Source of the DNA: a virus
Strand: one strand, 5' to 3'
Virus record (IMG/VR): IMGVR_UViG_3300045988_064749
Length of the DNA: 45,508 nt
The translations under genes and the position numbers were made by a program. The notes below the pieces were generated by a model that did not search any database, had not been told where the DNA came from, and saw only the letters and a program-made list of their open reading frames with translations. Every line of letters begins with the position of its first letter. Within the stretch, counting starts at the first letter, position 1. Below are positions 1 to 39,173 of the stretch, in pieces.

Positions 1-99
1 ACGCACTTTCCGAGTCTCTAAGGCGGTTGAAAGCCGCTACTGCTCCTGTGAGCAAAGGCGGAGTTGGCCTTGGCGCATTATCGAACTCCCTAAAAAAAT
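1..99. repeat. Terminal direct repeat. It is identical to 45410-45508 and reflects either a circular-assembly overlap or a short terminal redundancy.
   Basis: Reading both ends shows the same 99 nt (acgcactttccgagtctctaagg...ctccctaaaaaaat). Confidence 0.95.
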
Positions 100-8015: not shown

Positions 8016-9956
8016 ATGAGTTGGGCAGAAGCAAAATGGACTGTAGACCAGATTTTGCAGAAAGTTGGGCAAGCCCCTAACAATATGAGGGCGTTCACCG
8101 CTTATGCGAAATCCAAAACCAGTGTGGGTCTGAAATTTCTGGAACCCGCAGACAGCTATGACAGCACAGGGAACCTGCTCTGTTCTGTCGGCGGCGTAAT
8201 GATTCGCATGGGCGAGGAAAGCTATCCCACCAAGCCTACCGAGGGTACGCTGGTTGTCGACAATAAAGACCTCGGCAAATACGAAAACGAGGAATATGTT
8301 GTGAGCAGTCTCACAGAGGGGACAACCTATTATTTCTCCGCTTTTCCGTATTCCACGCAAGGCGTGTATAACCTGTCGAGCAATGAGAACAACCGTGCGA
8401 ACGCAACTCCCGCCAACGGTGAGACCGCCAATGTCACCATTACCATTGACGATGACAGCGCATTTACCAGTGTCCTTATCACCTGCGTAGACGAAACGGA
8501 CGGGCAGTACACCAAGACCGCAACCCTCACTAAAACTCAGAAAACAACCTCCTTTAATATCCCTATCGGGCATACCTACCACATCGAGTACGGAGCGGAG
8601 GACGGTTATTCCAAGCCTGAGAACACCAGCCCGAAGGTGTCTGTTGCAGGTGCGGTATCGAACTATGAAGCAACCTATCACCACTTCACCGCCACTATCA
8701 ATGTGACTTACCCTGCCGGGGCAACGCTGACCTGCTCTCTGGACGAGACAACCTACACGGCTACGACCACGACTGGCACTTACCAGTTCCAAGTCCACAA
8801 GGTAGGCACATGGACGGTAAAGGCCGTAAGCGGCGGCGAGACCGCTTCCGAGCAGGTTATTATCACCTCTGACGGGCAGACCGAGAGCGTAGAGCTGTCG
8901 TTCGTGAAAATCTACGGTATCAGCCGTGATGTCACCACTTCTTCCCCCGCATGGGCGAGAACTGATAACGCTGTCGGCATGACCGCCACCGCTTCTGTAG
9001 GGGCAAGCGCAGGCCACAGCGATTTTGACAACGCTATGCCTTGGAAAGGTATGGTACGGGAGACCTTATCCACCAACGATGTGATGGTTAAAATCCCGAA
9101 GTTCTATTATCGCCGCTACAAGGAAGGGAATGTGGAACACATTCAGATTGCGGACAAGCCTACTGCCGGGTTCTCCGTACACCCCCTGTTCAATCATGCG
9201 GGGCAGGAGAGCGAGTACGCCTATGTGGGTGCGTATAAGACTTCCAGCAATAACAAGTCTGTCACTGGGGCGAGTCCGCAGGTATCGCAGACGAGAACGC
9301 AGTTCCGCAGTAACGCCAAGGCAAAGGGAGCGGGTTGGAGCCTGATTGATATTGCGGCGGTATCTGCTATCCAAATGCTCATGCTGGTGGAGTTCGCAGA
9401 CAACAATGTGCAAAACAAAATCGGCAGAGGATATTGTGACGGTAACAGCGGCTCTCTGAGAACTGGTTCCTGCGATTCCGTACCGAATCTCACCGGCAGA
9501 CCTTCTGGCACGGACGGTAAGACTGGCGTTGTCTACAGAGGTATTGAGGACTTCTGGGGCAATGTGTGGGAATGGGTAGACGGTGTGAACTGGAACAACG
9601 GCACTTACTATGTGTGCAATGACCCGTCCAAGTATGCCGATGATACTACAAGTTACTACGACCAGCTCTCATTCAAGGGAAGTACGAGTTGGGGTAGTTC
9701 TTATATCACAGAAGAAGGTCTTGACACAAGCGCATTGAGAAACACTCATGTCATGCTCCCCGCCACGGCTGGTAGCGGCAGTGAGTCCACCTATTACTGT
9801 GACGCTTGTTGGAGTAGCACAGGTTGGCGAGTGTTCCAGCGCGGCGGTATTTGGAATAATGGGTCGGAATGCGGTCTGTTTGCGGCTTTTTTGTCCTACA
9901 CTTCGTCTTATTCCAGCGCGACCCTTGGCTCTCGCCTGCTTTATATCCCCTCCTGA
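8016..9956 (+). CDS. DGR target: tail-fibre/receptor-binding protein with a C-terminal variable domain (C-type-lectin/FGE-sulfatase-like fold).
   Basis: The C-terminal region reads ...GIEDFWGNVWEWVDG...GG(I)WNNGSECG..., ending in the VR 14 nt before the stop. It is the last gene of the tail module. TR and RT lie immediately downstream. Confidence 0.85.
   Translation: MSWAEAKWTVDQILQKVGQAPNNMRAFTAYAKSKTSVGLKFLEPADSYDSTGNLLCSVGGVMIRMGEESYPTKPTEGTLVVDNKDLGKYENEEYVVSSLTEGTTYYFSAFPYSTQGVYNLSSNENNRANATPANGETANVTITIDDDSAFTSVLITCVDETDGQYTKTATLTKTQKTTSFNIPIGHTYHIEYGAEDGYSKPENTSPKVSVAGAVSNYEATYHHFTATINVTYPAGATLTCSLDETTYTATTTTGTYQFQVHKVGTWTVKAVSGGETASEQVIITSDGQTESVELSFVKIYGISRDVTTSSPAWARTDNAVGMTATASVGASAGHSDFDNAMPWKGMVRETLSTNDVMVKIPKFYYRRYKEGNVEHIQIADKPTAGFSVHPLFNHAGQESEYAYVGAYKTSSNNKSVTGASPQVSQTRTQFRSNAKAKGAGWSLIDIAAVSAIQMLMLVEFADNNVQNKIGRGYCDGNSGSLRTGSCDSVPNLTGRPSGTDGKTGVVYRGIEDFWGNVWEWVDGVNWNNGTYYVCNDPSKYADDTTSYYDQLSFKGSTSWGSSYITEEGLDTSALRNTHVMLPATAGSGSESTYYCDACWSSTGWRVFQRGGIWNNGSECGLFAAFLSYTSSYSSATLGSRLLYIPS
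9823..9942 (+). repeat. DGR variable repeat (VR).
   Basis: It aligns to 10037-10156 at a constant +214 offset. In the core 9857-9942 all 9 differences fall at TR adenines. Confidence 0.9.
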
Positions 9957-9962
9957 GGGGGT

Positions 9963-9983
9963 GTGGGGGATTCCCTCCCCCAC
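9963..9983 (+). other. GC-rich hairpin immediately downstream of the VR and target stop codon.
   Basis: gtggggga-ttccc-tcccccac forms a perfect 8-bp stem. No U-run follows. Confidence 0.6.
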
Positions 9984-10036
9984 ATAGGTGGGTGAACACG
10001 CCATATTAAAATTGAAAACACATTAAGGCGCACGGT

Positions 10037-10156
10037 AAAAGCGGGTGTTCCTACACGGCGGTAATTGGGCTAATGGGTCGGAATGCGGTCTGTTTACGGC
10101 TTATTTGTCCAACACTTCGTCTAATTCCAACACGAACATTGGCTCTCGCCTACTTT
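10037..10156 (+). repeat. DGR template repeat (TR).
   Basis: This is a non-coding copy of the VR located upstream of the RT. It retains adenines where the VR has G, T or C. Confidence 0.9.
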
Positions 10157-10271
10157 TGTTAAAAGGTAATATTCATTGGTCGCTGTTTCGCCGTACCCAT
10201 TGGTAAAAAATAGTTTGGAGGGATAGGGTTAGTAGGTTCACTCTCGAAAGCCCTATGAGAAACAAAAGCAA

Positions 10272-11369
10272 ATGAAACGCTATGGCTTTTTATACGAACA
10301 GATAGTTTCGGTCGATAACTGTAGGCTGGCTATCATAAACGCTTCCCACAAAAAGAAAAACCGAAAAATGGTGAAGAAGGTCTTCGACAATTTGGAGTAT
10401 TACGCAAACGACCTGTCGGAACGCCTGATTCACATGGATTTCCTCTCCCCGTACAAGACCCGTATCATCAAGGACGGGCTATCCGGGAAAGAGAGGGAAC
10501 TGCAAGTCCCGGCGTTCTATCCCGACCAGTGCGCTCACCACGCTATCATGCAGATTCTCAAACCGATTATTGAGAAATCCTCCTATCATTGGAGTTGCGC
10601 CAATATCCCAAACCGGGGCATTGACCTTGCTTGCAAGGGTGTGGAGCGAGCCACGATACGGGACAGGAAACACGCCAAATATTGCGTGAAAATGGACATC
10701 AGCAAGTTCTACCCGTCCATTCCACACGGCAATCTGAAAGCCCGTCTGCGGGAGAAAATCAAGGACGAAAAGGCGTTGCAGATCATCTTTAAGGTGATTG
10801 ATTCCCATGGTCCGGGGCTTCCCATCGGGAATTATACTTCCCCTTGGCTTGCAGAGCTATACCTGCAACCGCTGGATTATCTTATCAAGCAGAAGCACAG
10901 AATACGGCACTATGTCCGCTATGCTGACGATCTGGTTTTGATAGACAACAATAAGCGGAAACTGCGGAAAGCCCTCTATGACATCTTTGCGTTTGTGGAA
11001 AGCCTTGGCATGAGAGTGAAGCACGATTATCAATTATTCCGTATTCAGCGGTATTGCAAAGAGAAGAAAGACCGCAAGGGACGGAAGATTGATTTTGTGG
11101 GAAGGTGCTTCGGTATAGGTTTTACCACTATACGCAAGCGCAGGGCGTTGGCACTTATGCGGCAGAGCAGGTTTATTCAGAAGCTACAGCGGGAAAAACG
11201 CCCTGTCTCATACCGAATGGCTTCCGGGTTTTTGTCCCGGTGCGCCTGTTTTAAGCACACTGATTCCTATGCCATGCGGAAAAAGTATTATGAAACCGTC
11301 AACATCAAACAGTTAAAGGAGGTTGTCAGCAATGAGAGTAAGAGGAAATGTCTCGCCCGAATCGCTTAG
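10272..11369 (+). CDS. DGR reverse transcriptase.
   Basis: RT motifs present: MDISKFYPSI, LPIGNYTSPWLAELYL and RYADDLVLI. The gene is adjacent to the TR. The C-terminal ~110 aa are Lys/Arg-rich. Confidence 0.9.
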   Translation: MKRYGFLYEQIVSVDNCRLAIINASHKKKNRKMVKKVFDNLEYYANDLSERLIHMDFLSPYKTRIIKDGLSGKERELQVPAFYPDQCAHHAIMQILKPIIEKSSYHWSCANIPNRGIDLACKGVERATIRDRKHAKYCVKMDISKFYPSIPHGNLKARLREKIKDEKALQIIFKVIDSHGPGLPIGNYTSPWLAELYLQPLDYLIKQKHRIRHYVRYADDLVLIDNNKRKLRKALYDIFAFVESLGMRVKHDYQLFRIQRYCKEKKDRKGRKIDFVGRCFGIGFTTIRKRRALALMRQSRFIQKLQREKRPVSYRMASGFLSRCACFKHTDSYAMRKKYYETVNIKQLKEVVSNESKRKCLARIA

Positions 11370-11649
11370 TATTGAGCCGTTCGCACCCATGCCGGGGTAT
11401 GTGGAGGTTCGTCTGAGAGAGAACATCAAGGACATTACGGCGGTTGATGAAATGACCGATCAGGAAGTCCCCATGTTCGAGTATGACGAGTACACCTTCC
11501 ATCTGGCAAATAAGGAGGGTCTGCGGGAGGAAATCGAGGGTAATATGAGCGACTGGCTTATCACAGGCAGAACCCTTGAAATCAATGAGGGTGCAAGCAT
11601 TGTGCAGGATATGAAGGAAGCTCTGGAAATTGTGGGGGTGAGTTTATGA
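11332..11649 (+). CDS. Hypothetical acidic protein.
   Basis: AAGGAGG (11316-11322) lies 9 nt before the ATG. The gene overlaps the RT 3' end by 38 nt. Confidence 0.6.
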   Translation: MRVRGNVSPESLSIEPFAPMPGYVEVRLRENIKDITAVDEMTDQEVPMFEYDEYTFHLANKEGLREEIEGNMSDWLITGRTLEINEGASIVQDMKEALEIVGVSL

Positions 11650-12071
11650 ACATGATTGAACAGGCACAGGCTATCCGGGAAGCTATGGATTACGCTGGGG
11701 CAAGTCTGGACGAGGACACCGCACTGATTTGCGTTGCGCTCTACCGTCCTTGGGCGGTTGGCGTTTCTTACAAGGTAAATGATTATTTTACCTACGGCGT
11801 GAACAGCGTGGGAGACCCTCAACTCTACCGGGTAGTACAGGCGCACACTTCTCAGGCAGACTGGACTCCTGACAGCGTACCCGCTCTGTACACCCCAATC
11901 GGTCTCACCGAGGAGGGCTACCCCGTCTGGTCTCAGCCTACAGGTGGACATGACGCTTATAACACCGGGGACATTGTTCAGTACAACGGCAAGCTGTACA
12001 AGTCTCTGATTGATGGGAATGTGTGGTCTCCCGATACCTACCCGCAGGGGTGGGAGGAATATACCCCCTGA
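11646..12071 (+). CDS. Protein with two CBM5/12-like carbohydrate-binding repeats.
   Basis: ATGA overlap with the upstream gene. Two repeats are recognisable: YxVNDYFTYG...AHTSQADWTPD...ALY and YNTGDIVQYNGKLYKSLIDGNVWSPDTYPQGW. Confidence 0.6.
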   Translation: MNMIEQAQAIREAMDYAGASLDEDTALICVALYRPWAVGVSYKVNDYFTYGVNSVGDPQLYRVVQAHTSQADWTPDSVPALYTPIGLTEEGYPVWSQPTGGHDAYNTGDIVQYNGKLYKSLIDGNVWSPDTYPQGWEEYTP

Positions 12072-12104
12072 CGAGTAATCAAATTTTGTCGAAGGAGAAC
12101 CCCG

Positions 12105-12635
12105 ATGGACGAGTTTTTGAAGGTTTTTGGCGATATTACGATCTCCACCGTTGCGATTATCATTGTCGCTCTGGTGTTCCTTTGGAAGATATACAATATC
12201 GTCAAAAACCACCTGATTGAGAAGTACAAGCAGGAAGAAGAAAAAGAGAAGAAGGTGCAGAAAATCATCGAACAGGCAAGCCATTATCCAGAATGGCGGC
12301 AACAGAGCATTGACATTCAGAAAAAATTTTCTGACGCTATCGCCGCTATTGAGGTTTCTCAGCGCACCAATCTGGAAAGTTTGAACCGGCTGGCAAAGAT
12401 GATCGCCGAAAATGAAGCTACCACCTGCCGGTACAGGATTCTACGCTTCAATGATGAAATTCTGCATGACCAAAAACATACAAAAGAGCATTTCGACCAG
12501 ATTCTTGACGATGTGACCCGGTACGAAAAGTTCTGCGCCGAACACCCTGAGTACGAGAACAACAAGGCTGTTATGGCTATCGAGAACATCAAGAGGGTCT
12601 ATCAGAAATGCTCCAATGATAACACATTCTTATAA
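12105..12635 (+). CDS. N-terminally membrane-anchored protein of the lysis module, function unknown.
   Basis: GAAGGAG RBS. One TM segment (ISTVAIIIVALVFLW) is followed by a charged helical region. Confidence 0.6.
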   Translation: MDEFLKVFGDITISTVAIIIVALVFLWKIYNIVKNHLIEKYKQEEEKEKKVQKIIEQASHYPEWRQQSIDIQKKFSDAIAAIEVSQRTNLESLNRLAKMIAENEATTCRYRILRFNDEILHDQKHTKEHFDQILDDVTRYEKFCAEHPEYENNKAVMAIENIKRVYQKCSNDNTFL

Positions 12636-12649
12636 GGAGGAATGACGAA

Positions 12650-13594
12650 ATGGCATACACAAACAGTTCCTTGGTGAAGTACACCAGTCTCAGCCCGAAC
12701 CATTCCGGGCAGAGGACACACAGTATCGACAGAATCACCCCCCACTGTGTTGTGGGACAGCTTACCGCAGAGGGTATCTGCGCCTGTTTCCCGAAAGGGA
12801 GGGAAGCGAGCTGTAACTACGGTATCGGCAAGGACGGGAAAGTTGCCCTCTGCGTGGAGGAAAAGAACCGCTCTTGGTGTTCCTCCTCTGCTGAGAACGA
12901 CCAGAGGGCAGTTACCATCGAGTGCGCTTCTGACAGCACCGCCCCGTATGCGTTCAACACCGCTGTTTACAATGCCCTGATTGAACTGTGCGTGGACATC
13001 TGCAAGCGTAACGGCAAGAACAAGCTCCTGTGGCTGGGCGATAAGACCAAGACTCTGAACTACGCTCCGAAGTCCGGGGAAATGGTACTTACCGTCCACC
13101 GCTGGTTTGCCAACAAGTCCTGCCCTGGCGATTGGATGTACTCTCGCATGGGAGACCTCGCTACGACCGTCACAAAGCGTCTGAGCGGCGTTTCTGGCGG
13201 GGGTAGTACAACTACTACCCCTACGGGAAAAACACTCTACAGAGTGCGTAAGAGCTGGTCTGACGCAAAGAGTCAGATTGGTGCTTTCTCTGTTCTGGCA
13301 AACGCCAAGTCTCTGGTGGACAAGAACCCAAGCTACAAGGTCTTTGACGAGAGCGGCAAGGTAGTCTACGAGAAAGGTAGCACCTCCACTGCGTTCAAGC
13401 CTTATACAGTGCGTGTGACCGCCACAGACTTGTATATCCGCAAGGGGGCTGGCACGAACTACAGCGCAAACGGTTTTAGTAAGCCGGGTGTCTACACCAT
13501 TGTGGCAGAGTCGAGCGGTCAGGGGGCTACCAAGTGGGGCAAGCTGAAATCCGGGGCTGGCTGGATTTCCCTTGACTACGCCAAGAAGCTCTAA
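12650..13594 (+). CDS. Endolysin: N-acetylmuramoyl-L-alanine amidase (Amidase_2/PGRP-like) with C-terminal SH3b-like wall-binding repeats.
   Basis: AAGGAGG RBS. The catalytic-domain pattern is ...ITPHCVVGQ...NYGIGKDGKVALCVEE...NDQRAVTIECAS. The C-terminus has YRVRKSW...GAFS and an SH3-like KWGKLKSGAGWISLDY segment. Confidence 0.8.
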   Translation: MAYTNSSLVKYTSLSPNHSGQRTHSIDRITPHCVVGQLTAEGICACFPKGREASCNYGIGKDGKVALCVEEKNRSWCSSSAENDQRAVTIECASDSTAPYAFNTAVYNALIELCVDICKRNGKNKLLWLGDKTKTLNYAPKSGEMVLTVHRWFANKSCPGDWMYSRMGDLATTVTKRLSGVSGGGSTTTTPTGKTLYRVRKSWSDAKSQIGAFSVLANAKSLVDKNPSYKVFDESGKVVYEKGSTSTAFKPYTVRVTATDLYIRKGAGTNYSANGFSKPGVYTIVAESSGQGATKWGKLKSGAGWISLDYAKKL

Positions 13595-13893
13595 TGGCAC
13601 GGCGTAGACGGAAAAAGCAAAAACCCGCTTCGGAATTTTCTAAGAAAATTGTAGTCGTGGTTTTCTCCATCAACATCGTAGTGATTGTGTTCGCTCTCAT
13701 TATGATGTGGCGCACCTGCGACCTCTCTCCGATGGCATACCTCATTCCAGCAGTTGCCGCAGAGACCGCAACGGGGACAGGCTTCTACTACTCCAAGGCC
13801 AAGGTTGAGAACCGTATAAAGCTGATGAAGCATTACAACATCGAACCGTCCGAACAATCTTTCAACGAACAAGGAGGATATTACAATGGTTGA
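13594..13893 (+). CDS. Putative holin or small membrane protein.
   Basis: TAATG overlap with the endolysin gene. A basic N-terminus is followed by a TM segment (VVVVFSINIVVIVFALIMMW). Confidence 0.5.
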   Translation: MARRRRKKQKPASEFSKKIVVVVFSINIVVIVFALIMMWRTCDLSPMAYLIPAVAAETATGTGFYYSKAKVENRIKLMKHYNIEPSEQSFNEQGGYYNG

Positions 13894-14188
13894 TCTTACC
13901 CCTATCATCACCGCAGTGCTGACGCTGATTATCTCCCTGATTTCCGCTTTTCTGATTCCCTATATCAAGGCGAAGACCACTGACGAGCAGTTCAACACTA
14001 TCAAACTGTGGGTGCAGGTTGCCGTACAAGCCGCTGAAATGCTCTATGTGGGCAGTGGCAGAGGTGAGGAAAAGAAGAAATATGTGGTGGATTTCCTCAA
14101 CAGCAAGGGCTTCACGCTGAACACTGAGGAGATTGACAACCTCATTGAGTCCGCTGTCTTGGAGCTGAAACAGTCGCAGATGAAGTAG
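13886..14188 (+). CDS. Holin, LL-H-like.
   Basis: AAGGAGG RBS. An N-terminal TM segment (IITAVLTLIISLISAFLIPYI) is followed by an amphipathic domain ...AVQAAEMLY..G.G..K. Confidence 0.6.
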   Translation: MVDLTPIITAVLTLIISLISAFLIPYIKAKTTDEQFNTIKLWVQVAVQAAEMLYVGSGRGEEKKKYVVDFLNSKGFTLNTEEIDNLIESAVLELKQSQMK

Positions 14189-14313
14189 TTAAAGTAGTTC
14201 AAAATCGGTTTTTGCGTAAACTTTCTCTATATACGCGTGTACTATGCAAAAGTTATACGCAAAAACCAAAGAACCACTACTTCAACTACTTCTATAAGAA
14301 TAAGAAGAATAAG
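14182..14313. repeat. Palindromic repeat element, copy A (core 14182-14290 plus a shared ATAAGAATAAGAAGAA tail).
   Basis: Terminal inverted repeats GAAGTAGTTAAAGTAGT / AACTACTTCAACTACT. It aligns with copies at 32020 and 36753. It contains the holin stop codon. Confidence 0.85.
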
Positions 14314-14324
14314 TTTACAAGACA

Positions 14325-14357
14325 AGAGGAGGTAGGCCAAATCAGCCTACCTCCTCT
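14325..14357. terminator. Perfect 13-bp-stem hairpin spanning the integrase stop codon. It is a likely int terminator and an alternative attP-core candidate.
   Basis: agaggaggtaggc-caaatca-gcctacctcctct. A T-rich run follows on the minus strand. Confidence 0.55.
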
Positions 14358-15889
14358 ATATTTACCACAAACCCAAAACAATGTTTTATGAAAAACAAGG
14401 TGTTCGGATTTGCACTGTTTGGTGGAGCGGCACACGCTATATCCGAACACGAAAGCGTGGCTGTGTTTTGCCCGGAAATATTGAAAGTGAAAACGATTCT
14501 CCGTCCCTTTTTTCCATCATCGTAAACATACACCGAGTTTACCAGAGTATCTATCACTCTGCGCCGATACTCAATATCATCTATATCACCACTCTTGAAC
14601 GAGTAGAGCCAATACATTATGCGCTCTTTCGTCAGGAGTGGTTTTTTCATTTCTTCACGAGCTATTTTCCCCTCCACCTCGTTCTTTTCAAGTTCCAACT
14701 CATTCATTCTTTCCTTGATGGTGGAAGTGATAATTCCTTGCTCAATAGCGTTCATAAGGTTTTTGATTTTCTTTTTAATGTCTTTCAATTCGCTTTGAAG
14801 CCCATCAATATATGTGGTATCTGCCGATTCCTTTTCGATGATCTCCATTGCCTTTTCCGCAATGCGCTCGATGTTTTCATCGGTAAGAACTTTTTGGACG
14901 GTGAAACGCACTACCAGTTCTTCTATCCAATCTTTCTTCTCCACAGCTTTTTTACATTTACGGTTTCGTTTGCGATCAATGCACTTGTAGTAATGATGGA
15001 GCTTGCCTGATTTTGAAGTACCACTCTCACCTACCATAGCAGAGCCACAATGACCGCAAAACAGTTTGGTGGTGAGAAGATAATCGTCTTTGGCTTTCTT
15101 TCTTGCACGAGCTGAGTAATTGTGTTTAAGCATAGCCTGTACCTTATCGAACAATTCCCGGCTTATGATTGGTGGTATTCCGTCTTCCACAATGACATCT
15201 GCGAAACGATAGATTCCGATATATCTGTCATTCTTCAACATCGTTCTGAGACTGTTTTTATTAAAGGCGTTTCCCCGTGAGGTTTTGTACCCTCGTTTGT
15301 TACATTCGTTGATGATCTGAGTTGCTGACATACCATCAGCGTACATCTGAAAAATCTCTTGAACTATTTTAGCTCCTACAGGGTCAATTTTATACTTTCT
15401 ATCTTCCCCTACAATGTAACCCAATGGCATACCAGCTCCACCGTTGGCAAGACATTGTAGGGCATTTTCTTTCATACCACGCTTGATGTTGCGAGATAGA
15501 TTCTCCGAGTAGTATTCAGCATATCCCTCCAACACGGATTCAAGAATAATGCCCTCCGGGGTGTCTGGCATGGGTTGTTTGGCATAATAGACCCGCACAC
15601 CGTTCTTTTTCAGCTTTGCTTTATAGATTGCAGAGTCGTATCTGTTTCGAGCAAAACGATCAAGGGTGTACATTATCACTGCCTCAAACTGACCTTTTTC
15701 GCTGTCTTTTATAAGCCGCTGAAAGTTCGGACGGTTATCGGTTTTTCCAGAGATTGCTCTGTCGCAATACTCGCCGATAATCGTCATTCCGTTTTTTAAG
15801 GCGAAGTCGTGACACTCACGAAGCTGTCCCTCGATTGACTCCTCTCTTTGATTGTGGCTTGAGTATCGAGCATATATTACCGCTTTCGT
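14342..15889 (-). CDS. Large serine recombinase (integrase). The start is non-canonical, most likely ACG at 15889-15887.
   Basis: The catalytic N-terminus (T)KAVIYARYSSHNQREESIEGQ lies upstream of the first ATG (15787). GGAGG lies 7 nt before the ACG. A recombinase domain, a Cys-containing zinc-ribbon-like segment (CGHCG...YYKC) and a coiled coil follow. Confidence 0.85.
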   Translation of the reverse strand, partial: TKAVIYARYSSHNQREESIEGQLRECHDFALKNGMTIIGEYCDRAISGKTDNRPNFQRLIKDSEKGQFEAVIMYTLDRFARNRYDSAIYKAKLKKNGVRVYYAKQPMPDTPEGIILESVLEGYAEYYSENLSRNIKRGMKENALQCLANGGAGMPLGYIVGEDRKYKIDPVGAKIVQEIFQMYADGMSATQIINECNKRGYKTSRGNAFNKNSLRTMLKNDRYIGIYRFADVIVEDGIPPIISRELFDKVQAMLKHNYSARARKKAKDDYLLTTKLFCGHCGSAMVGESGTSKSGKLHHYYKCIDRKRNRKCKKAVEKKDWIEELVVRFTVQKVLTDENIERIAEKAMEIIEKESADTTYIDGLQSELKDIKKKIKNLMNAIEQGIITSTIKERMNELELEKNEVEGKIAREEMKKPLLTKERIMYWLYSFKSGDIDDIEYRRRVIDTLVNSVYVYDDGKKGRRIVFTFNISGQNTATLSCSDIACAAPPNSANPNTLFFIKHCFGFVVNIEEVG

Positions 15890-16349: not shown

Positions 16350-16378
16350 TTGACAATTCGTTAAAGAAGAATTATAAT
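16350..16378 (+). promoter_or_regulatory. Consensus sigma-A/sigma-70 promoter (early/lytic, rightward).
   Basis: TTGACA (16350-16355), 17-nt spacer, TATAAT (16373-16378). Confidence 0.75.
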
Positions 16379-31922: not shown

Positions 31923-32019
31923 CTGAAATTATCCAATTTGGATTGAAAAACAATCTAAAACGACATTTAGAAAACAGTCTAAATCGGATTGCTATTTGTC
32001 TTTTAGAAAAGTTATAGGT

Positions 32020-32149
32020 GAAGTAGTTAAAGTAGTTCAAATCTTGATTTTGCGTAAAAGTCCTCTATAAGGGGTCTATATAGTAAAAGTTTACGGAAAA
32101 ACCGATTTTTAACTACTTCAACTACGCAATAAGAATAAGAAGAAAGAGG
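32020..32149. repeat. Palindromic repeat element, copy B (core 32020-32125 plus the ATAAGAATAAGAAGAA tail).
   Basis: It aligns with copies A and C and has the same terminal inverted repeats. Confidence 0.85.
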
Positions 32150-32173: not shown

Positions 32174-32770
32174 ATGGCAGTGAAGAAAAACACTGGTGGA
32201 ACTAAGAGAAACAACCCAAATGGAATTGGTTTACCTGCAAGCAAAAGTTCACTCATGCTTGAAGATGGTGACAATGCGAAGTTTACCAGTATGAATTTGC
32301 ATTTTATGAATCTCCCGAAAATCGACCTGCATGACGAAAAAGCTGTGCAGGACAGGCTCAATGAGTATTTCGACTTTATGATACAGAATGATATGAAGCC
32401 CTCTGTATCTGGTATGGCTATGGCATTGGGGCTTGACAGAAGAAGACTGTGGGAAATCAAGACTGGTAATACACAAGGTAGCGGAGCATTGGGTGGACTG
32501 TCCTCGTTGCCGCAGGAAGTAACGGACTTAGTAAAAAAAGCCTATCAACTTTTGGAATGTCTGTGGGAGGACTATATGCTCAATGGCAAAATCAACCCCA
32601 TGGCTGGTGTATTCCTTGGTGTCAACAACTATGGCTATCAAGATGTCAAAAAGGTCGATGTCGCTCCTATCCTGCCCAACAATAAGGACAACGACTATGA
32701 CGCTGACGCAATCCGGGAACGCTACCTTATCGACTCTAACGACTCCGACTCTGACTCAGACAACGACTAA
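32174..32770 (+). CDS. terS: Terminase small subunit.
   Basis: GGAGGAGG RBS. HTH-like segment PSVSGMAMALGLDRRRLWE, then ...GKINPMAGVFLGVNNYGYQD, typical of the Terminase_2 family. The tail is acidic. Confidence 0.7.
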   Translation: MAVKKNTGGTKRNNPNGIGLPASKSSLMLEDGDNAKFTSMNLHFMNLPKIDLHDEKAVQDRLNEYFDFMIQNDMKPSVSGMAMALGLDRRRLWEIKTGNTQGSGALGGLSSLPQEVTDLVKKAYQLLECLWEDYMLNGKINPMAGVFLGVNNYGYQDVKKVDVAPILPNNKDNDYDADAIRERYLIDSNDSDSDSDND

Positions 32771-32867: not shown

Positions 32868-32990
32868 GGTGCTGATTGTCCCCCGGTGGAAGTGGAGCCG
32901 GTGGAGCGTGGGCGGGTTTTCGTTTTCGCTTATATAATGTATAGAGGACAAAAAGCAATCCGAAAAAGATAAAAAATTTCCGAAAACCTC

Positions 32991-33019
32991 TTGACAATTC
33001 GTTAAAAGCGAATTATACT
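32991..33019 (+). promoter_or_regulatory. Consensus promoter with an operator-like palindrome in the spacer (32996-33014).
   Basis: TTGACA, 17-nt spacer, TATACT. The spacer contains AATTCG-ttaaaag-CGAATT. The first 16 nt (TTGACAATTCGTTAAA) are identical to the promoter at 16350. Confidence 0.7.
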
Positions 33020-33074
33020 ATAATCACAACAGGACAACAAACAATCCGAACAAGATTGACAGGAGGTTTTTAGA

Positions 33075-35170: not shown

Positions 35171-35179
35171 TTACATATA

Positions 35180-35769: not shown

Positions 35770-35797
35770 AATCCTACAAAGACAACGGAGGTGCATT

Positions 35798-36013
35798 ATG
35801 GTATTAAACAATATCGAACTTGATGTGAAAGTCAAATGCCTTGAATCCAACATGAACCAACTGAACCTTGCTGAGAAAATCGGCACGACAGGTCAGTATG
35901 TCAATCGTATCATCAAGCGCAAGGACGGTCTGTTGAACAAGACCTTTGTTGAGATTATGGAAGCTCTCGGATATGACATCGAATTTACCTATGTGAAGCG
36001 GGGTGAAAAGTAA
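35798..36013 (+). CDS. XRE-family HTH regulator.
   Basis: GGAGGTG RBS. HTH segment: MNQLNLAEKIGTTGQYVNRIIKRKDG. Confidence 0.7.
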   Translation: MVLNNIELDVKVKCLESNMNQLNLAEKIGTTGQYVNRIIKRKDGLLNKTFVEIMEALGYDIEFTYVKRGEK

Positions 36014-36190: not shown

Positions 36191-36763
36191 ATGAAGGTCG
36201 GTTATGTACGAGTGAGCACCGCAGAACAAAACCCGGCGAGACAGATGGAATTGATGAAATCCCTTGGTGTGGAGAAGATTTATCAAGAGAAGCGCAGTGG
36301 CAAGAACACGGACAGGCCGCAGTTCAACGAAATGCTCTCTTTTCTGCGTGATGGGGACACGCTCTATGTGGAGTCATTTTCCCGCCTGTCCAGAAGCACA
36401 CGAGATTTGCTTTCTACTGTAGCAACGCTGACAGAGCATGGTGTGAATCTTGTGTCGGACAAGGAGAATTTTGACACCAGCACACCACAGGGAAAATTTG
36501 TGCTGACGGTGTTTGCGGCTCTTTCGGAGTTTGAACGGGAAAGCATTTTGGAAAGACAGCGGGAAGGAATTGAAATCGCCAAAGCTGAGGGAAAATACAA
36601 AGGACGCAAACCCATTCCTGCCAACGAAAAGTTCTTCACAGTAGCAAAGGCTTGGGCAGATGGAAAGGTCGCTCTCAAGGACGCAATCCGGGAGTCTGGT
36701 ATGTCCTCGTCCACATTCTTTCGCAAATGCAAGCAGTATGAAATTAGCAGGAGAAGTAGTTAA
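36191..36763 (+). CDS. Small serine recombinase (resolvase/invertase family, Hin/Gin/Pin-like) with a C-terminal HTH.
   Basis: GGGGGGAGGTG RBS. Sequence: MKVGYVRVSTAEQNPARQ...DRLSRS-like (FSRLSRSTRDL)...GRKP... Confidence 0.85.
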   Translation: MKVGYVRVSTAEQNPARQMELMKSLGVEKIYQEKRSGKNTDRPQFNEMLSFLRDGDTLYVESFSRLSRSTRDLLSTVATLTEHGVNLVSDKENFDTSTPQGKFVLTVFAALSEFERESILERQREGIEIAKAEGKYKGRKPIPANEKFFTVAKAWADGKVALKDAIRESGMSSSTFFRKCKQYEISRRSS

Positions 36764-36860
36764 AGTAGTGGAAAATCATGTTTTGCGTATAACTTTTCAT
36801 AGTATGCGCGTATTAAGTAAAAGTTTACGGAAAAACCGAAAAACAACTACTTTAACTACT
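36753..36860. repeat. Palindromic repeat element, copy C.
   Basis: It aligns with copies A and B. Its left arm supplies the recombinase stop codon (TAA 36761-36763). The right arm AACTACTTTAACTACT is the exact complement of the left arm. Confidence 0.85.
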
Positions 36861-36872
36861 TGAGAGGAGTGA

Positions 36873-37454
36873 ATGACCATGGGGCGATATGATAATTTTC
36901 ACAATACCAAGAACATCGAAAAGGCTCAGAAGAAGCTCGACAAGCTTCTGAGCAAGCGCAAGCCCGACCAGTATCAGATTGACTTGGCAAGGGAAGCTCT
37001 TGCCCAAGCGAAGCTGTTTGAGAGCTGTCAGATTTTCAAAAGTTTCAGCGGGTATGCGCCGAACGAGAACATCATGTTCAGTGATGATAACCGTGTGATG
37101 TGGTTTATCAAGTACCTTGTCCCCTATGATGAAATCAGCTCGTACTCCATCGTGGAGAATGTGGTGCAGAAAGCGCAGACGCAAACCAAGAGCCGGGGCG
37201 TTATCTCACGAGCTATTATCGGCGGGGCGATTGCAGGTGGTGTCGGTGCTGTCGTTGGAGCGGCTTCGGCGGGGTCGAAATCTCAAACGACCTACTACAA
37301 CGAGGGCGAGGGCTTTTTCCTGCAAATCTTCACGAAGAACGGCGAACGATATAGCTGTCACATTGAAAGCAACGGGTTTATTGCGAATAAGGTTCACCCG
37401 AAATGGCTTGAGCTTGGAACGAAGTTACAATCCATTATTGACGGGAAGGTATAA
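36873..37454 (+). CDS. Hypothetical protein with a glycine-zipper segment (moron candidate).
   Basis: GAGAGGAG RBS. Contains SRAIIGGAIAGGVGAVVGAASAG. It is bracketed by palindrome C and hairpin R1. Confidence 0.6.
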   Translation: MTMGRYDNFHNTKNIEKAQKKLDKLLSKRKPDQYQIDLAREALAQAKLFESCQIFKSFSGYAPNENIMFSDDNRVMWFIKYLVPYDEISSYSIVENVVQKAQTQTKSRGVISRAIIGGAIAGGVGAVVGAASAGSKSQTTYYNEGEGFFLQIFTKNGERYSCHIESNGFIANKVHPKWLELGTKLQSIIDGKV

Positions 37455-37466
37455 ACCAGATTATTA

Positions 37467-37522
37467 AATGGCGCATGATTGCGAGAGCGTAAAGCTCAAA
37501 CGGTCATGCGCCATTTTCTTTT
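37467..37522 (+). terminator. Structured terminator-like hairpin R1, immediately upstream of terL.
   Basis: aatggcgcatga...tcatgcgccatt forms a 12-bp stem followed by a T-rich run. An inner gagc-gtaaa-gctc stem-loop is present. R1 shares a 17-nt sequence (TGGCGCATGATTGCGAG) with R2. Confidence 0.65.
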
Positions 37523-37532
37523 GGAGGTATTT

Positions 37533-39173
37533 ATGCGAAATCTACTTGATACGATTTATGAAAAAGTGAGGACGGGTCATGCCTATCAATCTATGGAAGA
37601 CCTGTATTACATGAGCAAGGAAGCAATGAAAACCGACACCGCTCTCGCTGTGAAGTTTTTGAAGCTCCTCTCTGCTGAATGTGAGAGAGCCATGCGTGAC
37701 AGGTCTATGTCCGGGGAACAGGTGCGATTGATCTATGACCTGCACAGGAGGGTTTGCCTTACCGCCGCCCCTTACGATTTTGACTGCTATCTGCTCTATG
37801 TGGAATGGAACCGGGAGCCTGACAAGAAGTTTTACCCTCCTCGCCGTAAGGTTTTGAAGCAGGTGGTGGACGCTCTGCAAGAGCTGGCAGACGATAAACT
37901 TGACTTGTTGGCGGTTTCCCTCCCTCCCGGTAGCGGTAAGACCACCCTTGCGATTTTCTACCTCACTTGGCTTGGTGGGAAAATTCCCAATGAACCCATG
38001 CTGACAGGTTCACATTCCAATTCTTTTGTGCGTGGCGTTTATGATGAATGTCTGCGAATTATGGACGAAAACGGCGATTACCTTTGGCATGATGTTTTCC
38101 CCAATGTAAAGGTGTCCAACACTAACGCAAAGGACTGCCGTATTGATCTCGACAAGAGACAGCGTTTTGAAACTTTGGAGTTCACCTCCATCGGAACCGG
38201 CAACGCTGGTCTGTATCGTGCCGCTACCCTGCTCTACTGTGACGATTTGGTGTCTGGTATCGAGGTGGCATTGTCGAAAGAGCGTCTGGACAAGCTGTGG
38301 GAGACCTACACCACGGACTTGAGACAGCGTAAAATCGGAGACCACTGCAAGGAGCTTCACATTGCAACACGGTGGTCTGTCCACGATGTCATTGGGCGGC
38401 TTGAGCGGGAGTATATCGACAGCGATCGGGCAAAGTTCATCGTGATTCCCGCTCTTAACGAGAATGACGAGTCCAATTTTGATTACGCTTACGGTGTCGG
38501 GTTCAGCACGAGTTTCTACCGTGAGCAGAGAAACATCATGGACGATGTGAGCTGGCGAGCATTGTATATGAACGAGCCGATTGAGCGAGAAGGTCTTGTC
38601 TACTCTGAGGACGAGCTTCGCCGTTATTTTGAGCTTCCAAAGGAAGACCCTGACGCAGTTATTGGTATCTGCGACACAAAGGACAAGGGGGCTGACTATG
38701 CTTTCCTGCCGGTGGCCTATGTGTATGGGCATGACTACTATATTGACGATTGCGTTTGTGATAACGGTCTGCCCAATATTGTAGACGCTCGGCTGACGGA
38801 AATCCTTGTCCGAGACAAGGTGAAATCCTGCCGGTTTGAGTCTAATTCCGCAGGTCGGCGAGTTGCCGAGAAGATACAGGAAGAAGTAAAGAAAAAAGGC
38901 GGTATCACTCACATCACCACCAAGTTCACCACTGCCAATAAGGAAACCAAAATCATTGTGAACAGCGCATGGGTTAAGGAGCACTGTTTGTTCAAAGATT
39001 CTTCTCTTTACCAGAGAAAATCTGATTACGGAAAAATGATGGATATGCTCTGTTCCTATACGATGGCGGGTAAAAACAAGCACGATGATGTCCCTGACGG
39101 TATGGCAATGCTGGCAGAATACGCACAAAGTTTGAACGGGCGGAATGTGGAGGTATTTAAGCGTCCATGGTAA
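37533..39173 (+). CDS. terL: Terminase large subunit.
   Basis: GGAGG RBS. Walker A is SLPPGSGKTT. The C-terminal half is nuclease-like. The gene lies upstream of the portal gene. Confidence 0.85.
   Translation: MRNLLDTIYEKVRTGHAYQSMEDLYYMSKEAMKTDTALAVKFLKLLSAECERAMRDRSMSGEQVRLIYDLHRRVCLTAAPYDFDCYLLYVEWNREPDKKFYPPRRKVLKQVVDALQELADDKLDLLAVSLPPGSGKTTLAIFYLTWLGGKIPNEPMLTGSHSNSFVRGVYDECLRIMDENGDYLWHDVFPNVKVSNTNAKDCRIDLDKRQRFETLEFTSIGTGNAGLYRAATLLYCDDLVSGIEVALSKERLDKLWETYTTDLRQRKIGDHCKELHIATRWSVHDVIGRLEREYIDSDRAKFIVIPALNENDESNFDYAYGVGFSTSFYREQRNIMDDVSWRALYMNEPIEREGLVYSEDELRRYFELPKEDPDAVIGICDTKDKGADYAFLPVAYVYGHDYYIDDCVCDNGLPNIVDARLTEILVRDKVKSCRFESNSAGRRVAEKIQEEVKKKGGITHITTKFTTANKETKIIVNSAWVKEHCLFKDSSLYQRKSDYGKMMDMLCSYTMAGKNKHDDVPDGMAMLAEYAQSLNGRNVEVFKRPW

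What the first reader, a model, noticed from the sequence alone, without database searches (positions are those of the whole stretch)
14182..14313. Family of three ~108-bp palindromic elements at module boundaries, touching both serine-recombinase genes
The copies are A 14182-14290, B 32020-32125 and C 36753-36860, all in the same orientation. The shared blocks are GAAGTAGTTAAAGTAGT, TTTTGCGTA(A/T)A, AAAAGTT(A/T)TACG(C/G)AAAAACC and AACTACTT(C/T)AACTAC. A and B also share ATAAGAATAAGAAGAA just outside the right arm. The two arms of each copy are complementary: a ~15-bp basal stem, an internal loop and a 12-17-bp upper stem. The ~20-nt centre differs in every copy (A tatacgcgtgtacta, B tataaggggtctatata, C catagtatgcgcgtattaag). 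That pattern implies selection on a hairpin or cruciform rather than on the central sequence. The left arm supplies the stop codons of the holin (TAG 14186-14188) and of the small recombinase (TAA 36761-36763). Each copy sits at the end of a transcription unit: A after the late/lysis genes and facing the integrase 3' end, B after the last early gene and before terS, and C after the invertase. Possible roles are RNase-III-type processing sites or bidirectional terminator/insulator hairpins, res/hix-like sites for the resident serine recombinases, or a MITE-like mobile sequence. For the recombination-site idea, the A-tract plus ACC/GGT half-motifs GGTTTTTGCG and CG(C/G)AAAAACC are reminiscent of Hin/Gin-type sites. 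I know of no described element with these repeats.
Basis: partly seen in the sequence, partly recalled or inferred. Interest (0 to 1): 0.75.

Follow-up and report, generated by a model that had tools for sequence, protein, structure and literature searches.

The report
Conserved palindromic junction repeats in gut phages
The three ~110-bp palindromic repeats are real and belong to a large, apparently undescribed family found in temperate phages of gut Clostridia, where they sit at the joints between gene modules; they look like protein-recognised DNA sites rather than RNA hairpins, and their biochemical job is still unknown.

Summary
A (14182-14292), B (32020-32127) and C (36753-36861) are three copies of a ~110-bp quasi-palindrome, far beyond chance. 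The family is large: 254 copies in the 267 sequences I collected, mostly uncultivated gut phage contigs and prophages of Lachnospiraceae, Oscillospiraceae, Erysipelotrichaceae and Peptostreptococcaceae. I found no match in Rfam, GenBank phages, plasmids or the searchable literature.

Each element is two inverted ~45-bp half-sites. A half-site has two invariant AAGTAGT heptamers 9 bp apart, a variable spacer and a TTTTTGCGT..AACTT block. The two halves flank a variable AT-rich core.

Variation is not compensatory: pairing within an element is no better than between shuffled partners. Neither strand folds better, and there is no stable polarity. The arms therefore seem to be read as sequence, most simply by a DNA-binding protein, not kept as a hairpin.

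By a purine-skew proxy for the coding strand, elements lie between co-directional or convergent genes and none lies between divergent ones. They sit at module borders. Homology between related phages ends at the element's outer edge about 10 times more often than expected. Serine-recombinase genes are adjacent in 32 of 75 contexts, but I saw no inter-copy rearrangement.

Best reading: a protein-bound boundary element that also serves as a recombination linker. Function remains unproven.

The parts
14182..14292 (.). Element A. Left half carries an A-type spacer (TCAAAATCGG) and a short inner arm. Right half carries a T-type spacer (GGTTCTTTGG as reverse complement) and a long inner arm. Core is TATACGCGTGTA.
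   Evidence: folds.
14293..14313 (+). Purine-rich tail TATAAGAATAAGAAGAATAAG, shared with B and with about 30 other contexts.
   Evidence: When the tail is present it lies on the side of the downstream gene.
14325..14357 (.). Separate GC-rich hairpin between A and the integrase stop. It is a canonical terminator-like site and is not part of the repeat.
   Evidence: It persists in L180, which lacks the element.
13886..14188 (+). Holin gene. Its TAG stop (14186-14188) lies in the first heptamer of A.
   Evidence: Pfam Phage_holin_6_1; phrog_6918.
14342..15787 (-). Large serine recombinase (integrase), convergent with the late operon. Its stop is about 50 bp from A.
   Evidence: Resolvase + Recombinase + Zn_ribbon_recom domains. 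The exact protein was found only on contigs of 45.5 kb or less, all in the circular arrangement.
31975..32000 (+). GGATTG-containing motif just upstream of B. It recurs next to B-type elements in other phages, and two inverted copies (32925-32963, 33033-33058) flank the sigma-A-like promoter at 32991-33019.
32020..32127 (.). Element B. The right half is the A-type spacer / short-arm form, the left half is a variant, and the core is the GGGGTC type.
32128..32149 (+). Purine-rich tail of B, running into the ribosome-binding region of the next gene.
32174..32770 (+). 198-aa GP3_package-like protein, a candidate small terminase. It is the gene served by B-type elements.
   Evidence: Pfam PF16677, E = 4e-7. 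In 124 hits the order is element, then this gene, then a recombinase 2.1-3.6 kb further on.
35798..36013 (+). 71-aa XRE-type HTH_3 protein behind a consensus sigma-A promoter (35741-35769). It is a conserved partner of the small recombinase. In another lineage the element lies between this gene and the recombinase.
36191..36763 (+). 190-aa Gin-like DNA invertase. Its TAA stop (36761-36763) lies in the left arm of C.
   Evidence: Resolvase domain, E = 2.7e-43. Best solved relative is Gin (4m6f, E = 4e-30), and the YVRVST motif is intact.
36753..36861 (.). Element C. It is followed directly by the ribosome-binding site (GAGAGGAG) of the next gene.
36873..37454 (+). 193-aa ORF (phrog_888, unknown function) immediately before terL. 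The true start is probably the ATG at 36879.
37479..39173 (+). Large terminase, the first recognisable gene of the structural (late) module that C precedes.
   Evidence: phrog_38, E = 6.5e-64.

Best explanation
A, B and C belong to a phage-specific family of ~110-bp intergenic 'junction palindromes'.

**Anatomy.** Each element is two inverted ~45-bp half-sites around a variable AT-rich core. A half-site has two invariant AAGTAGT heptamers with a 9-bp period, a 10-bp spacer of either the GAAAATCGG type or the GTTCTTGG type, and a TTTTTGCGT(A/ATA/GTA)ACTT block at fixed distance.

**Proposed mechanism.**
1. The arms are read as sequence on double-stranded DNA by a conserved DNA-binding protein carried by these phages. 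Candidates are the XRE HTH_3 plus Gin-like recombinase pair, or the GP3-type small terminase, all encoded next to elements. The result is a protein-DNA complex at the borders of gene modules: early | terS, accessory cassette | terL and late genes, lysis | integrase.
2. As a consequence, the ~110 bp shared by otherwise unrelated flanks acts as the joint at which related phages exchange modules. The likeliest route is homologous recombination; the phage encodes an Erf-family annealing protein.

**Shown:** family membership, anatomy, invariance without compensation, lack of strand bias, intergenic placement, and excess of homology breakpoints at the outer edge.

**Inferred:** that a protein binds, which protein it is, and what the complex does (boundary or roadblock, regulation of the packaging genes, or DNA bending for packaging).
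For: - There are 254 elements in 267 sequences and about 24 true copies in genomes of Roseburia, Dorea, Faecalibacterium, Acutalibacter, Catenibacterium, Criibacterium and others.
- **Sequence is conserved, pairing is not.** Ten of 16 basal-stem pairs never vary. Pairing within an element (83.7%) is no better than with shuffled partners (84.4%), and the covariation score is below the shuffled value. There are 0 compensatory pairs.
- **Uncompensated variants.** The heptamer-linker pair is broken in 19 of 38 sequences, and the TTTTTCCG variant leaves an uncompensated G.G in 14 of 38.
- **Independent halves.** Left versus reverse-complemented right identity is the same within and between elements for outer arms (0.93 / 0.93) and inner arms (0.81 / 0.81). 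Spacers are less alike within an element (0.42 versus 0.50; 295 of 300 permutations reach the observed value).
- **No strand preference.** Mean RNA folding energy is -36.7 kcal/mol for sense and -36.7 for antisense (n = 55, p = 0.74). There is no stable polarity: 9 versus 5 flank pairs.
- **Placement.** By the purine-skew proxy, 43 contexts are co-directional, at least 2 convergent and 0 divergent, out of 66.
- **Deep synteny.** The order element-terS...HTH_3-recombinase(-element)-terL holds even in a Peptostreptococcaceae isolate.
- **Joints.** 22% of 5995 homology ends fall within 15 bp of the far outer edge, about 10 times a uniform expectation. Ten flank clusters have 2 to 5 different partners. 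Sharp breaks at the arm edge appear in L205, L042/L204 and L002.
- **Recombination protein.** An ERF-domain protein is encoded in this phage.
- **Precedent.** SPBRE in phage SPbeta is a repeated intergenic phage element bound by a recombinase-fold regulator, MrpR (PMC10516654).
Against: - No binding protein is identified, and nothing here tests binding.
- A 110-bp site with a conserved non-complementary spacer pair and a frequent one-base bulge also looks like a structured hairpin.
- The rarer core types are each individually palindromic (listing). This hints at some pressure for dyad symmetry, though the permutation result is weak (29 of 300).
- The window-centred breakpoint test is weak: 4 of 137 breakpoint bins lie near elements, which occupy 1.3% of the covered sequence.
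- The edge enrichment is partly built in, because every compared locus shares the element itself.
- Elements are dispensable at particular joints. A phage whose invertase is 97% identical lacks C.
- Invertases sit upstream of the packaging genes in other Clostridia phages without any such palindrome.
Confidence: 0.4

Rival explanations
1. RNA-level boundary hairpin. The element is transcribed within the polycistronic early and late messages and folds into a bipartite hairpin with an internal loop. That hairpin is cut by RNase III or RNase Y, or protects 3' ends, separating and stabilising the messages of neighbouring modules. The model is the RNase III sites of T7 and of Bacillus phage SP82.
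For: - Predicted hairpins are very stable (z = -3.7 to -9.8).
- By the strand proxy, elements lie between co-directional or convergent genes and none between divergent ones.
- Upstream ORFs stop in or at the first arm, and downstream ribosome-binding sites follow within 12-80 nt.
- The spacers are kept non-complementary, which conserves an internal loop.
- In A and B the hairpin is followed by a single-stranded purine tail and then a second hairpin.
- A palindrome would work on transcripts from either strand, which fits the convergent site A.
Against: - There is no compensatory change in 34 pairs across 38 diverged members, and pairing is no better than with shuffled partners.
- The stems are invariant at the sequence level, which structure-reading RNases do not require.
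- Mismatches inside the stems are common and uncompensated.
- There is no sense-strand advantage and no stable polarity.
- No Rfam family matches; only sub-threshold generic hairpin (miRNA precursor) matches appear.
Confidence: 0.25
2. Site-specific recombination site (res, hix or attC-like) for the resident serine recombinases. The Gin-like invertase, with the HTH_3 partner, or the integrase would act on the elements to invert, excise or load the segments between copies, for example the 4.7-kb B-C cassette.
For: - A serine recombinase gene is directly adjacent in 32 of 75 contexts, in three different geometries.
- The invertase looks catalytically intact.
- The length and the position next to the recombinase gene recall Tn3 res (from my own knowledge).
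- The A-type half-site TTGAAAATCGGTTTTTG resembles hixL TTGAAAACCAAGGTTTTTG with a core 2 bp shorter (hixL sequence recalled from memory).
- One inversion isomer exists. The interior of L073 is 99% identical to L066 and L120 as reverse complement, and 68% direct, within the same flanks.
- Halves assort independently.
Against: - There is no deletion, inversion or hybrid product between copies in any fetched relative. All loci that cover both B and C keep both, 4.0-4.5 kb apart and in the same order (9 of 13 loci; 16 more).
- There is no canonical hix/gix site.
- The invariant part, the AAGTAGT heptamers, resembles no known serine-recombinase half-site as far as I can recall.
- Three directly repeated active res sites would delete essential modules.
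- Half of the close invertase relatives lack the adjacent element.
- Where flanks have been exchanged, the whole element stays with one flank, so the joint is at the outer edge and not at the centre.
- Related invertases occupy the same genomic position in other phages with no such palindrome.
Confidence: 0.12
3. Recognition or assembly site for the small terminase (pac-like, or cosB-like in architecture). Heptamer arrays on bendable AT-rich DNA just upstream of terS and of the terL module would recruit the packaging machinery.
For: - The most deeply conserved context is immediately upstream of the GP3_package-like gene.
- A second copy precedes the terL module.
- Inverted arrays of short repeats flanking a bendable centre are the architecture of lambda cosB and P1 pac (from my own knowledge).
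- The interior is rich in A-tracts and T-tracts.
Against: - There are three copies per genome, and one of them (A) is at the lysis-integrase end, away from the packaging genes.
- Elements also occur between endolysin and holin.
- Copies are dispensable at individual positions.
- No terminus data are available. Contig ends at elements are equally explained by assemblies breaking at repeats.
Confidence: 0.1
4. MITE-like selfish mobile element with terminal inverted repeats, moved in trans by a transposase, comparable to Correia or RUP elements.
For: - The architecture is terminal inverted repeats, with two end variants combined in different ways.
- There are 58 flank clusters and 36 flank pairs.
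- Presence and absence vary between relatives (L180, L014, L142, L002, L205).
- Both orientations occur at one locus.
- The element supplies stop codons to upstream genes.
Against: - There are no target-site duplications.
- No empty site has both flanks conserved, among 267 sequences.
- Copy number is only 2-4 per phage, and about 24 copies were found in 185,579 species genomes.
- The A, B and C types are old, syntenic paralogues that differ by 28-40% from one another, while their orthologues in other phages are close.
- The strand proxy found none between divergent genes.
Confidence: 0.07

Closest known systems
Conserved boundary or 'linker' sequences of modular phage evolution (Susskind-Botstein model; junction sequences in lambdoid phages), and the promoter-early stem-loop (PeSL) cassettes of T4-type phages. 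Cited from my own knowledge.
   Same: Short conserved intergenic sequences sit between otherwise unrelated modules, and homology between phages starts and stops at them. Here, 22% of homology ends fall at the outer edge of the element.
   Different: This element is much longer and more elaborate: 110 bp, four invariant heptamers and a bipartite palindrome. It contains no recognisable promoter. It is conserved across phages of several bacterial families.
SPBRE, the SPbeta repeated element bound by the recombinase-fold master repressor MrpR (PMC10516654)
   Same: It is a repeated element in intergenic regions of a temperate Firmicutes phage. It was predicted in silico long before its binding protein was found, and that protein has a recombinase fold.
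   Different: SPBRE is a 15-bp motif in promoter regions, bound by a catalytically dead tyrosine-recombinase-like protein. Here the element is 110 bp, lies between co-directional or convergent genes, and the neighbouring recombinases are serine type and look catalytically intact. Binding is untested.
RNase III processing hairpins of phage T7 (R0.3-R18.5) and of Bacillus phage SP82. Cited from my own knowledge.
   Same: They form a family of related intergenic hairpins with a lower stem, internal loop and upper stem, lying between genes of one transcript.
   Different: Here there is no compensatory variation, the stem sequence is invariant, the length is about twice as great, and both strands are equally stable. 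Cleavage is untested.
Correia / NEMIS elements of Neisseria and RUP of Streptococcus pneumoniae (MITEs). Cited from my own knowledge.
   Same: They are palindromic units of about 100-150 bp with inverted ends that come in two variants combined in different ways. They abut genes and can fold in RNA.
   Different: This family shows no target duplication and no clean empty sites, has low copy number, and was found in phage or prophage settings wherever context was examined.
Tn3 / gamma-delta res and the hix/gix sites of serine recombinases. Cited from my own knowledge.
   Same: The element is about 110-120 bp, lies next to a small serine recombinase gene, and contains A-tract/T-tract motifs like hix half-sites.
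   Different: Its overall dyad symmetry and AAGTAGT heptamers are unlike res subsites. No full hix/gix site is present, and no recombination products were seen.
Integron attC sites. Cited from my own knowledge.
   Same: Both are imperfect palindromes at the 3' end of genes. The layout is an outer paired box, an unpaired spacer, an inner paired box with an extra base, and a variable tip. The element supplies the stop codon of the upstream gene.
   Different: attC conserves structure with little sequence and has a fixed strand polarity. Here the sequence is invariant, there is no covariation and no polarity. No tyrosine integron integrase is present.

Membership tests
Any Rfam RNA family | Match to a curated covariance model at or above its gathering score | tested here: not met
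   The only gathering-level hit in the window is RT-18 at 10194-10271. At A and B only generic miRNA-precursor hairpin matches appear, far below threshold.
Structured RNA / RNase III-type processing hairpin | Base pairing maintained by compensatory substitutions across homologues | tested here: not met
   0 compensatory pairs by RNAalifold. 83.7% of cells pair against 84.4% when shuffled, and the covariation score is 0.055 against 0.068.
Structured RNA / RNase III-type processing hairpin | Cleavage or transcript ends at the site | not testable with these tools
   No transcript data are available. This needs end-mapping RNA-seq in a lysogen, with and without RNase III.
Intrinsic (Rho-independent) terminator | GC-rich stem followed by a U-tract | tested here: not met
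   The scan calls no terminator in A, B or C. A separate canonical hairpin lies at 14325-14357. The arms are followed by purine-rich tails or ribosome-binding sites.
hix/gix crossover site of Hin/Gin invertases | 26-bp site made of two 12-bp inverted half-sites (..AAAACC) around a 2-bp core | tested here: not met
   AAAACCNNGGTTTT with up to 2 mismatches gives 2 hits elsewhere in the window (3.4 expected) and none in the elements. The A-type half-site has a core 2 bp shorter.
hix/gix or res site | Recombination products (inversion or deletion between copies) in populations | tested here: not met
   In 9 of the 13 loci with a relative of the 193-aa ORF, B and C are both covered and both kept, 4.0-4.5 kb apart. 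Sixteen further invertase loci cover both and show the same order. The only rearrangement found is one flip within a single element.
MITE | Target-site duplication and empty sites with both flanks conserved | tested here: not met
   No duplicated flanking bases. 0 empty sites among 267 sequences.
MITE | Many dispersed copies in host chromosomes | tested here: not met
   32 stretches in 185,579 species genomes, of which about 24 are true members at 1-3 per genome. Those I examined sit beside phage genes: L139 and L147 match window phage genes, and L123 and L137 show the conserved recombinase and terS contexts.
Integron attC | Conserved R''/R' core sites (RYYYAAC / GTTRRRY) and a fixed recombinogenic strand | tested here: not met
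   By eye, the arm ends GAAGTAGT / ACTACTTC do not fit the core consensus. No polarity relative to genes: 9 versus 5 flank pairs.
Protein-bound repeated phage element (SPBRE-like operator or boundary site) | Invariant sequence blocks at fixed spacing, varying without regard to the partner arm | tested here: met
   Heptamers are invariant in 38 of 38 sequences. GCG lies at a fixed 15 nt from heptamer 2. The halves vary independently.
Protein-bound repeated phage element (SPBRE-like operator or boundary site) | Demonstrated binding by a cognate protein | not testable with these tools
   Candidates are named only by adjacency: the HTH_3 protein, the Gin-like recombinase and TerS.
Phage modular 'linker' / boundary sequence | Homology between related genomes begins or ends at the element more often than elsewhere | tested here: met
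   1338 of 5995 homology ends lie within 15 bp of the far edge, about 10 times uniform. Ten flank clusters have 2 or more partners. Caveats: the window-only test is weak, and part of the enrichment is inherent because the element itself is shared.

The most novel reading that the evidence does not exclude
The elements are folded or looped recombination sites of a cassette system run by a serine recombinase, a 'phage integron'. In this reading the Gin-like invertase and its HTH_3 partner load, unload or flip gene cassettes at AAGTAGT-armed palindromes. That would explain four things: the variable 2-4-kb accessory region bounded by elements between terS and terL, the stop codons embedded in the arm, the independent assortment of half-sites, and the single flip isomer.
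Probability: 0.08. Interest if true: 0.9.

Novelty: new variant of a known kind. Interest (0 to 1): 0.5.

Why it matters
If the reading holds, this is a concrete and abundant example of the conserved 'linker' sequences that the modular theory of phage evolution postulated, found in uncultivated gut phages.

- It is a 110-bp element with invariant arms, kept at the same module joints in phages of at least four Bacillota families.
- It marks where modules are exchanged.
- It gives annotators a marker for module borders and for the start of the packaging region.
- It points to an unidentified sequence-specific protein that these phages share.

The question is directly testable, because cultured isolates carry prophages with the element: Dorea ammoniilytica Sanger_02, Catenibacterium mitsuokai DSM 15897 and Criibacterium bergeronii CCRI-22567.

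Tried and rejected
- **Known RNA families.** Rfam at gathering and at permissive thresholds gave nothing relevant.
- **Known phages, plasmids and literature.** No match in GenBank phages with a 6-kb segment or with the element itself, none in plasmids, and none in full-text searches for the arm sequences. A general literature search found nothing useful.
- **Sense-strand RNA hairpin.** The sense versus antisense stability test showed no difference.
- **Polarity relative to transcription.** An apparent 26:8 bias fell to 9:5 once counted per independent flank pair.
- **'Divergent' contexts.** The 12 divergent contexts from crude ORF calls were artefacts of spurious ORFs. A purine-skew strand proxy gives 0.
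- **Promoter inside the element.** No sigma-70-type match. Hand-fitted -35/-10 candidates were too weak to report.
- **attP for the integrase.** Elements are intact inside an integrated Dorea prophage. In a related lineage the element lies upstream of the holin, not between holin and integrase. The exact integrase was never seen in host context, so junctions could not be checked.
- **Element-mediated deletion in L001.** The terL'-endolysin' fusion there has its endpoints inside the genes, not at the element.
- **Analogous palindromes next to related invertases.** Looked in phiSemix9P1 and MT835537; none found.
- **AAGTAGT-array palindromes in other phyla.** These occur in Bacteroidota and other genomes. 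They have different interiors and, where I checked the flanks, ordinary chromosomal neighbours. I treat them as a separate phenomenon.
Full report
**1.

The 17-mer of the left arm, at up to 3 mismatches, occurs five times in the window. These are three left arms and two right arms on the other strand. The chance expectation is 0.08, and no shuffle out of 100 reaches five. Eleven of the 14 AAGTAGT heptamers in the window lie in the three elements.

A profile built from the three copies places them at 14182-14291, 32020-32127 and 36753-36861. Each folds as a basal stem, an internal loop and an upper stem, both as RNA (-41.2, -29.6 and -35.9 kcal/mol) and as DNA.

The window is a circular assembly, since bases 1-99 repeat at 45410-45508. 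The three copies therefore divide a ~45.4-kb temperate siphophage genome into three parts:
- a lysogeny and early module (A to B);
- a 4.7-kb cassette (B to C);
- the packaging, structural and lysis module (C to A).

The holin and the 190-aa recombinase both end on stop codons inside the left arm. The large serine integrase converges on A. A GP3_package-like protein follows B. C is followed by a 193-aa ORF and terL.

**2. It is a large family, and I found no description of it**

After further retrievals I held 254 elements in 267 sequences.

A two-arm pattern scan of 185,579 species genomes returned 32 stretches. About 24 are true members. They come from Roseburia, Dorea, Faecalibacterium, Acutalibacter, Catenibacterium, Criibacterium, Erysipelotrichaceae and Oscillospiraceae, plus a few Bacteroid* MAGs that may be mis-binned. 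One Acutalibacter MAG contig is 98.5% identical to window 7835-14426, which suggests the host.

Nothing matched in Rfam, in GenBank phages, in plasmids or in the searchable literature.

**3. Anatomy**

Reading each half from the outside inwards gives:
- (G)AAGTAGT, one or two free bases, then AAGTAGT;
- a spacer of about 10 nt, of either an A-type (GAAAATCGG) or a T-type (GTTCTTGG);
- TTTTTGCGT, then A, ATA or GTA, then ACTT;
- CTATATA or CTTAGTA, then the core.

The GCG lies a fixed 15 nt from the second heptamer. Cores fall into a few types: CGCGCG, GGGGGTC, GGGATTTTTC and some rarer ones.

Spacer pairs are (A,T) 39 times, (A,A) 16, (A,other) 17, (T,other) 2 and (T,T) never. Inner arms pair long with short in 41 of 60 cases.

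A purine-rich tail (AATAAGAATAAGAAGAA) follows one end in about 30 of 75 contexts, on the side of the downstream gene.

**4. Hairpin or sequence?**

- On 38 non-redundant members, RNAalifold predicts 18 pairs and none shows a compensatory change.
- For the full two-helix structure, 83.7% of cells pair. When the 3' partners are dealt out among sequences, 84.4% pair. The covariation score is 0.055 against 0.068 shuffled.
- Ten of the 16 basal pairs never vary. The pair at the heptamer linker is broken in 19 of 38 sequences. The G of GCG is unpaired in 14 of 38.
- Left half versus reverse-complemented right half is no more alike within an element than between elements: outer arms 0.93 / 0.93, inner arms 0.81 / 0.81. 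Spacers are less alike within an element, 0.42 against 0.50.
- Sense and antisense strands fold equally well, at -36.7 and -36.7 kcal/mol (n = 55).
- An apparent polarity of the A-rich loop disappears when counted per independent flank pair, 9 against 5.

The dyad symmetry therefore belongs to the consensus, which is two inverted copies of one half-site. It is not maintained by compensation. The invariant tandem heptamers with free linkers are what sequence-specific DNA-binding proteins usually leave behind. The conserved non-complementarity of the spacers, and the fact that the rare core types are each palindromic, keep a structural role from being excluded.

**5. Where the elements sit**

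Crude ORF calls suggested every kind of context, but many of those ORFs were spurious. I used purine skew as a proxy for the coding strand, after validating it on the window. This gives 43 co-directional contexts, at least 2 convergent and no divergent ones out of 66.

Upstream genes very often stop in or at the first arm. Downstream genes start 12-80 nt after the last arm.

The recurrent contexts are:
- (i) upstream of the GP3-like terS, preceded by a GGATTG motif and followed by the tail;
- (ii) right after a 190-aa Gin-like invertase;
- (iii) between a 70-aa HTH_3 gene and a 252-aa serine recombinase, just before terL;
- (iv) after the holin, facing a large serine integrase;
- (v) between endolysin and holin.

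The window carries the HTH_3 gene at 35798-36013, ahead of its invertase. The order element, terS, 2.1-3.6 kb of variable genes, then recombinase holds in 124 hits, with one exception. It extends to a Peptostreptococcaceae isolate.

A serine recombinase is directly adjacent in 32 of 75 contexts. The invertase is Gin-like with an intact active-site motif.

**6. Recombination: what is seen and what is not**

Seen:
- Flanks assort. There are 58 flank clusters and 36 flank pairs, and ten clusters have 2 to 5 partners.
- For homology that enters from one flank, 22% of 5995 ends fall within 15 bp of the far outer edge of the element. This is about ten times a uniform expectation, and few ends fall inside.
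- There are sharp examples. L204 shares the invertase and the whole of C with the window and then diverges at the arm edge. L205, whose invertase is 97% identical, lacks C and diverges 1-2 nt before the arm. L002 keeps a 98%-identical recombinase flank with no element.
- One locus shows the interior flipped within unchanged flanks: 99% identity as reverse complement against 68% direct.

Not seen:
- Any deletion, inversion or hybrid between copies. In every fetched relative that covers both B and C, the two are kept 4.0-4.5 kb apart and in the same order.
- Any empty site with both flanks conserved.
- Any target duplication.
- Any canonical hix/gix site.

Further points:
- Related invertases sit upstream of the packaging genes in other Clostridia phages with no such palindrome.
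- The window-only breakpoint test is weak.
- Part of the edge enrichment is inherent, because the element itself is shared sequence.
- The phage encodes an ERF-domain annealing protein, so homologous exchange within 110 shared bases is plausible.

**7. Interpretation**

The best-supported reading is a protein-read inverted half-site array at module borders. As a consequence, it is also the shared joint at which modules are swapped (confidence 0.40). I cannot name the protein. Adjacency points to the HTH_3 and recombinase pair or to TerS. The SPBRE-MrpR case in SPbeta shows that a repeated intergenic phage element can be the target of a recombinase-fold regulator (PMC10516654).

Rivals, with my confidence in each:
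- an RNA processing or stabilising hairpin, 0.25. Placement and stability favour it; the lack of covariation and the invariant stems count against it;
- a site-specific recombination site, 0.12;
- a TerS or pac-like site, 0.10;
- a MITE, 0.07.

**8. Novelty and score**

The kind of thing is known: conserved intergenic repeats or boundary sequences in phages. This family, its architecture and its breadth appear to be new. I rate it a new variant of a known kind, with interest 0.5.

The most novel reading still open is a serine-recombinase cassette system that uses these palindromes. I give it a probability of about 0.08, with high interest if true.

Noticed in passing
window 9827-11369: A likely diversity-generating retroelement. 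An RT-18 RNA (Rfam RF03021, 44.7 bits) lies at 10194-10271, directly upstream of a 365-aa reverse transcriptase ORF (10272-11369, RVT_1). A repeat pair at 86% identity (9827-9942 and 10041-10156) looks like the variable and template repeats, at the 3' end of the 646-aa ORF 8016-9956.
   Followed up: partly
window 1-99 and 45410-45508: An exact 99-bp terminal direct repeat shows the window is a circularised assembly of about 45.4 kb. The exact integrase protein occurs only on contigs of 45.5 kb or less in 48 collection blocks, always in the circular gene order and never with host flanks.
   Followed up: partly
window 31975-32000, 32925-32963, 33033-33058: Three copies of the motif TCGGATTGCTwTTTGTC. 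One lies upstream of element B. Two inverted copies bracket a near-consensus sigma-A promoter (32991-33019) that resembles the promoter at 16350-16378. They look like operators. The same GGATTG..AATC motif sits next to B-type elements in many other phages.
   Followed up: partly
window 35312-35435: A cluster of five degenerate ~36-nt iteron-like direct repeats, spaced 13-33 nt apart, overlaps the start of ORF 35335-35823 inside the B-C cassette. It follows a strong terminator at 35179-35201.
   Followed up: no
L119:6978-7098, L130:7785-7902, L133:129-247, L135:118-217, L140:3120-3228, L146:5220-5333, L141:3998-4111, L125:5464-5571: In Prevotella, Parabacteroides, Bacteroides nordii, Mediterranea, Tannerellaceae and two other MAGs there are different palindromes. 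They are built from 3-6 tandem (A)AGTAGTn units on one side and their inverse on the other, with unrelated interiors. Most lie between ordinary chromosomal genes such as efflux, TonB-dependent receptor and MiaB genes. The heptamer array is therefore more widespread than the phage family.
   Followed up: partly
L001:200-1420: The 15.9-kb contig behind L001 is a deletion derivative. The N-terminal part of terL is fused to the C-terminal end of the endolysin, so the whole structural region is missing. It keeps the integrase, early genes, terS, the recombinase and three elements. It is either a defective prophage or possibly a satellite-like element.
   Followed up: partly
L073:378-487 versus L066:9367-9475 and relatives: This is the only clear flip isomer. 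The ~75-bp interior of the element is inverted between identical endolysin and holin flanks. Either the inversion is rare or assemblies capture only the dominant state.
   Followed up: yes
L267 (KX905163 55745-56302), NC_021325 38534-38959, L268 (MT835537 103-657): A Gin/Hin-like invertase gene sits at the record end or start in C. difficile phage phiSemix9P1 and C. perfringens phage CP51, where packaging genes usually follow. In the fecal phage MT835537 it lies about 2.4 kb upstream of terL. The role of an invertase at this position seems unexplained.
   Followed up: partly
window 3351-3650: Two tandem 150-nt repeats at 71% identity lie inside the 1411-aa ORF 27-4262, which I presume is the tape measure gene.
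   Followed up: no
L205:6560-6700: A close relative, with an invertase 97% identical, lacks element C. Instead it carries a canonical promoter (TTGGAA-17-TATAAT with an upstream TG) driving what looks like a lipoprotein gene. This is a moron-type replacement that starts exactly where the element would begin.
   Followed up: partly
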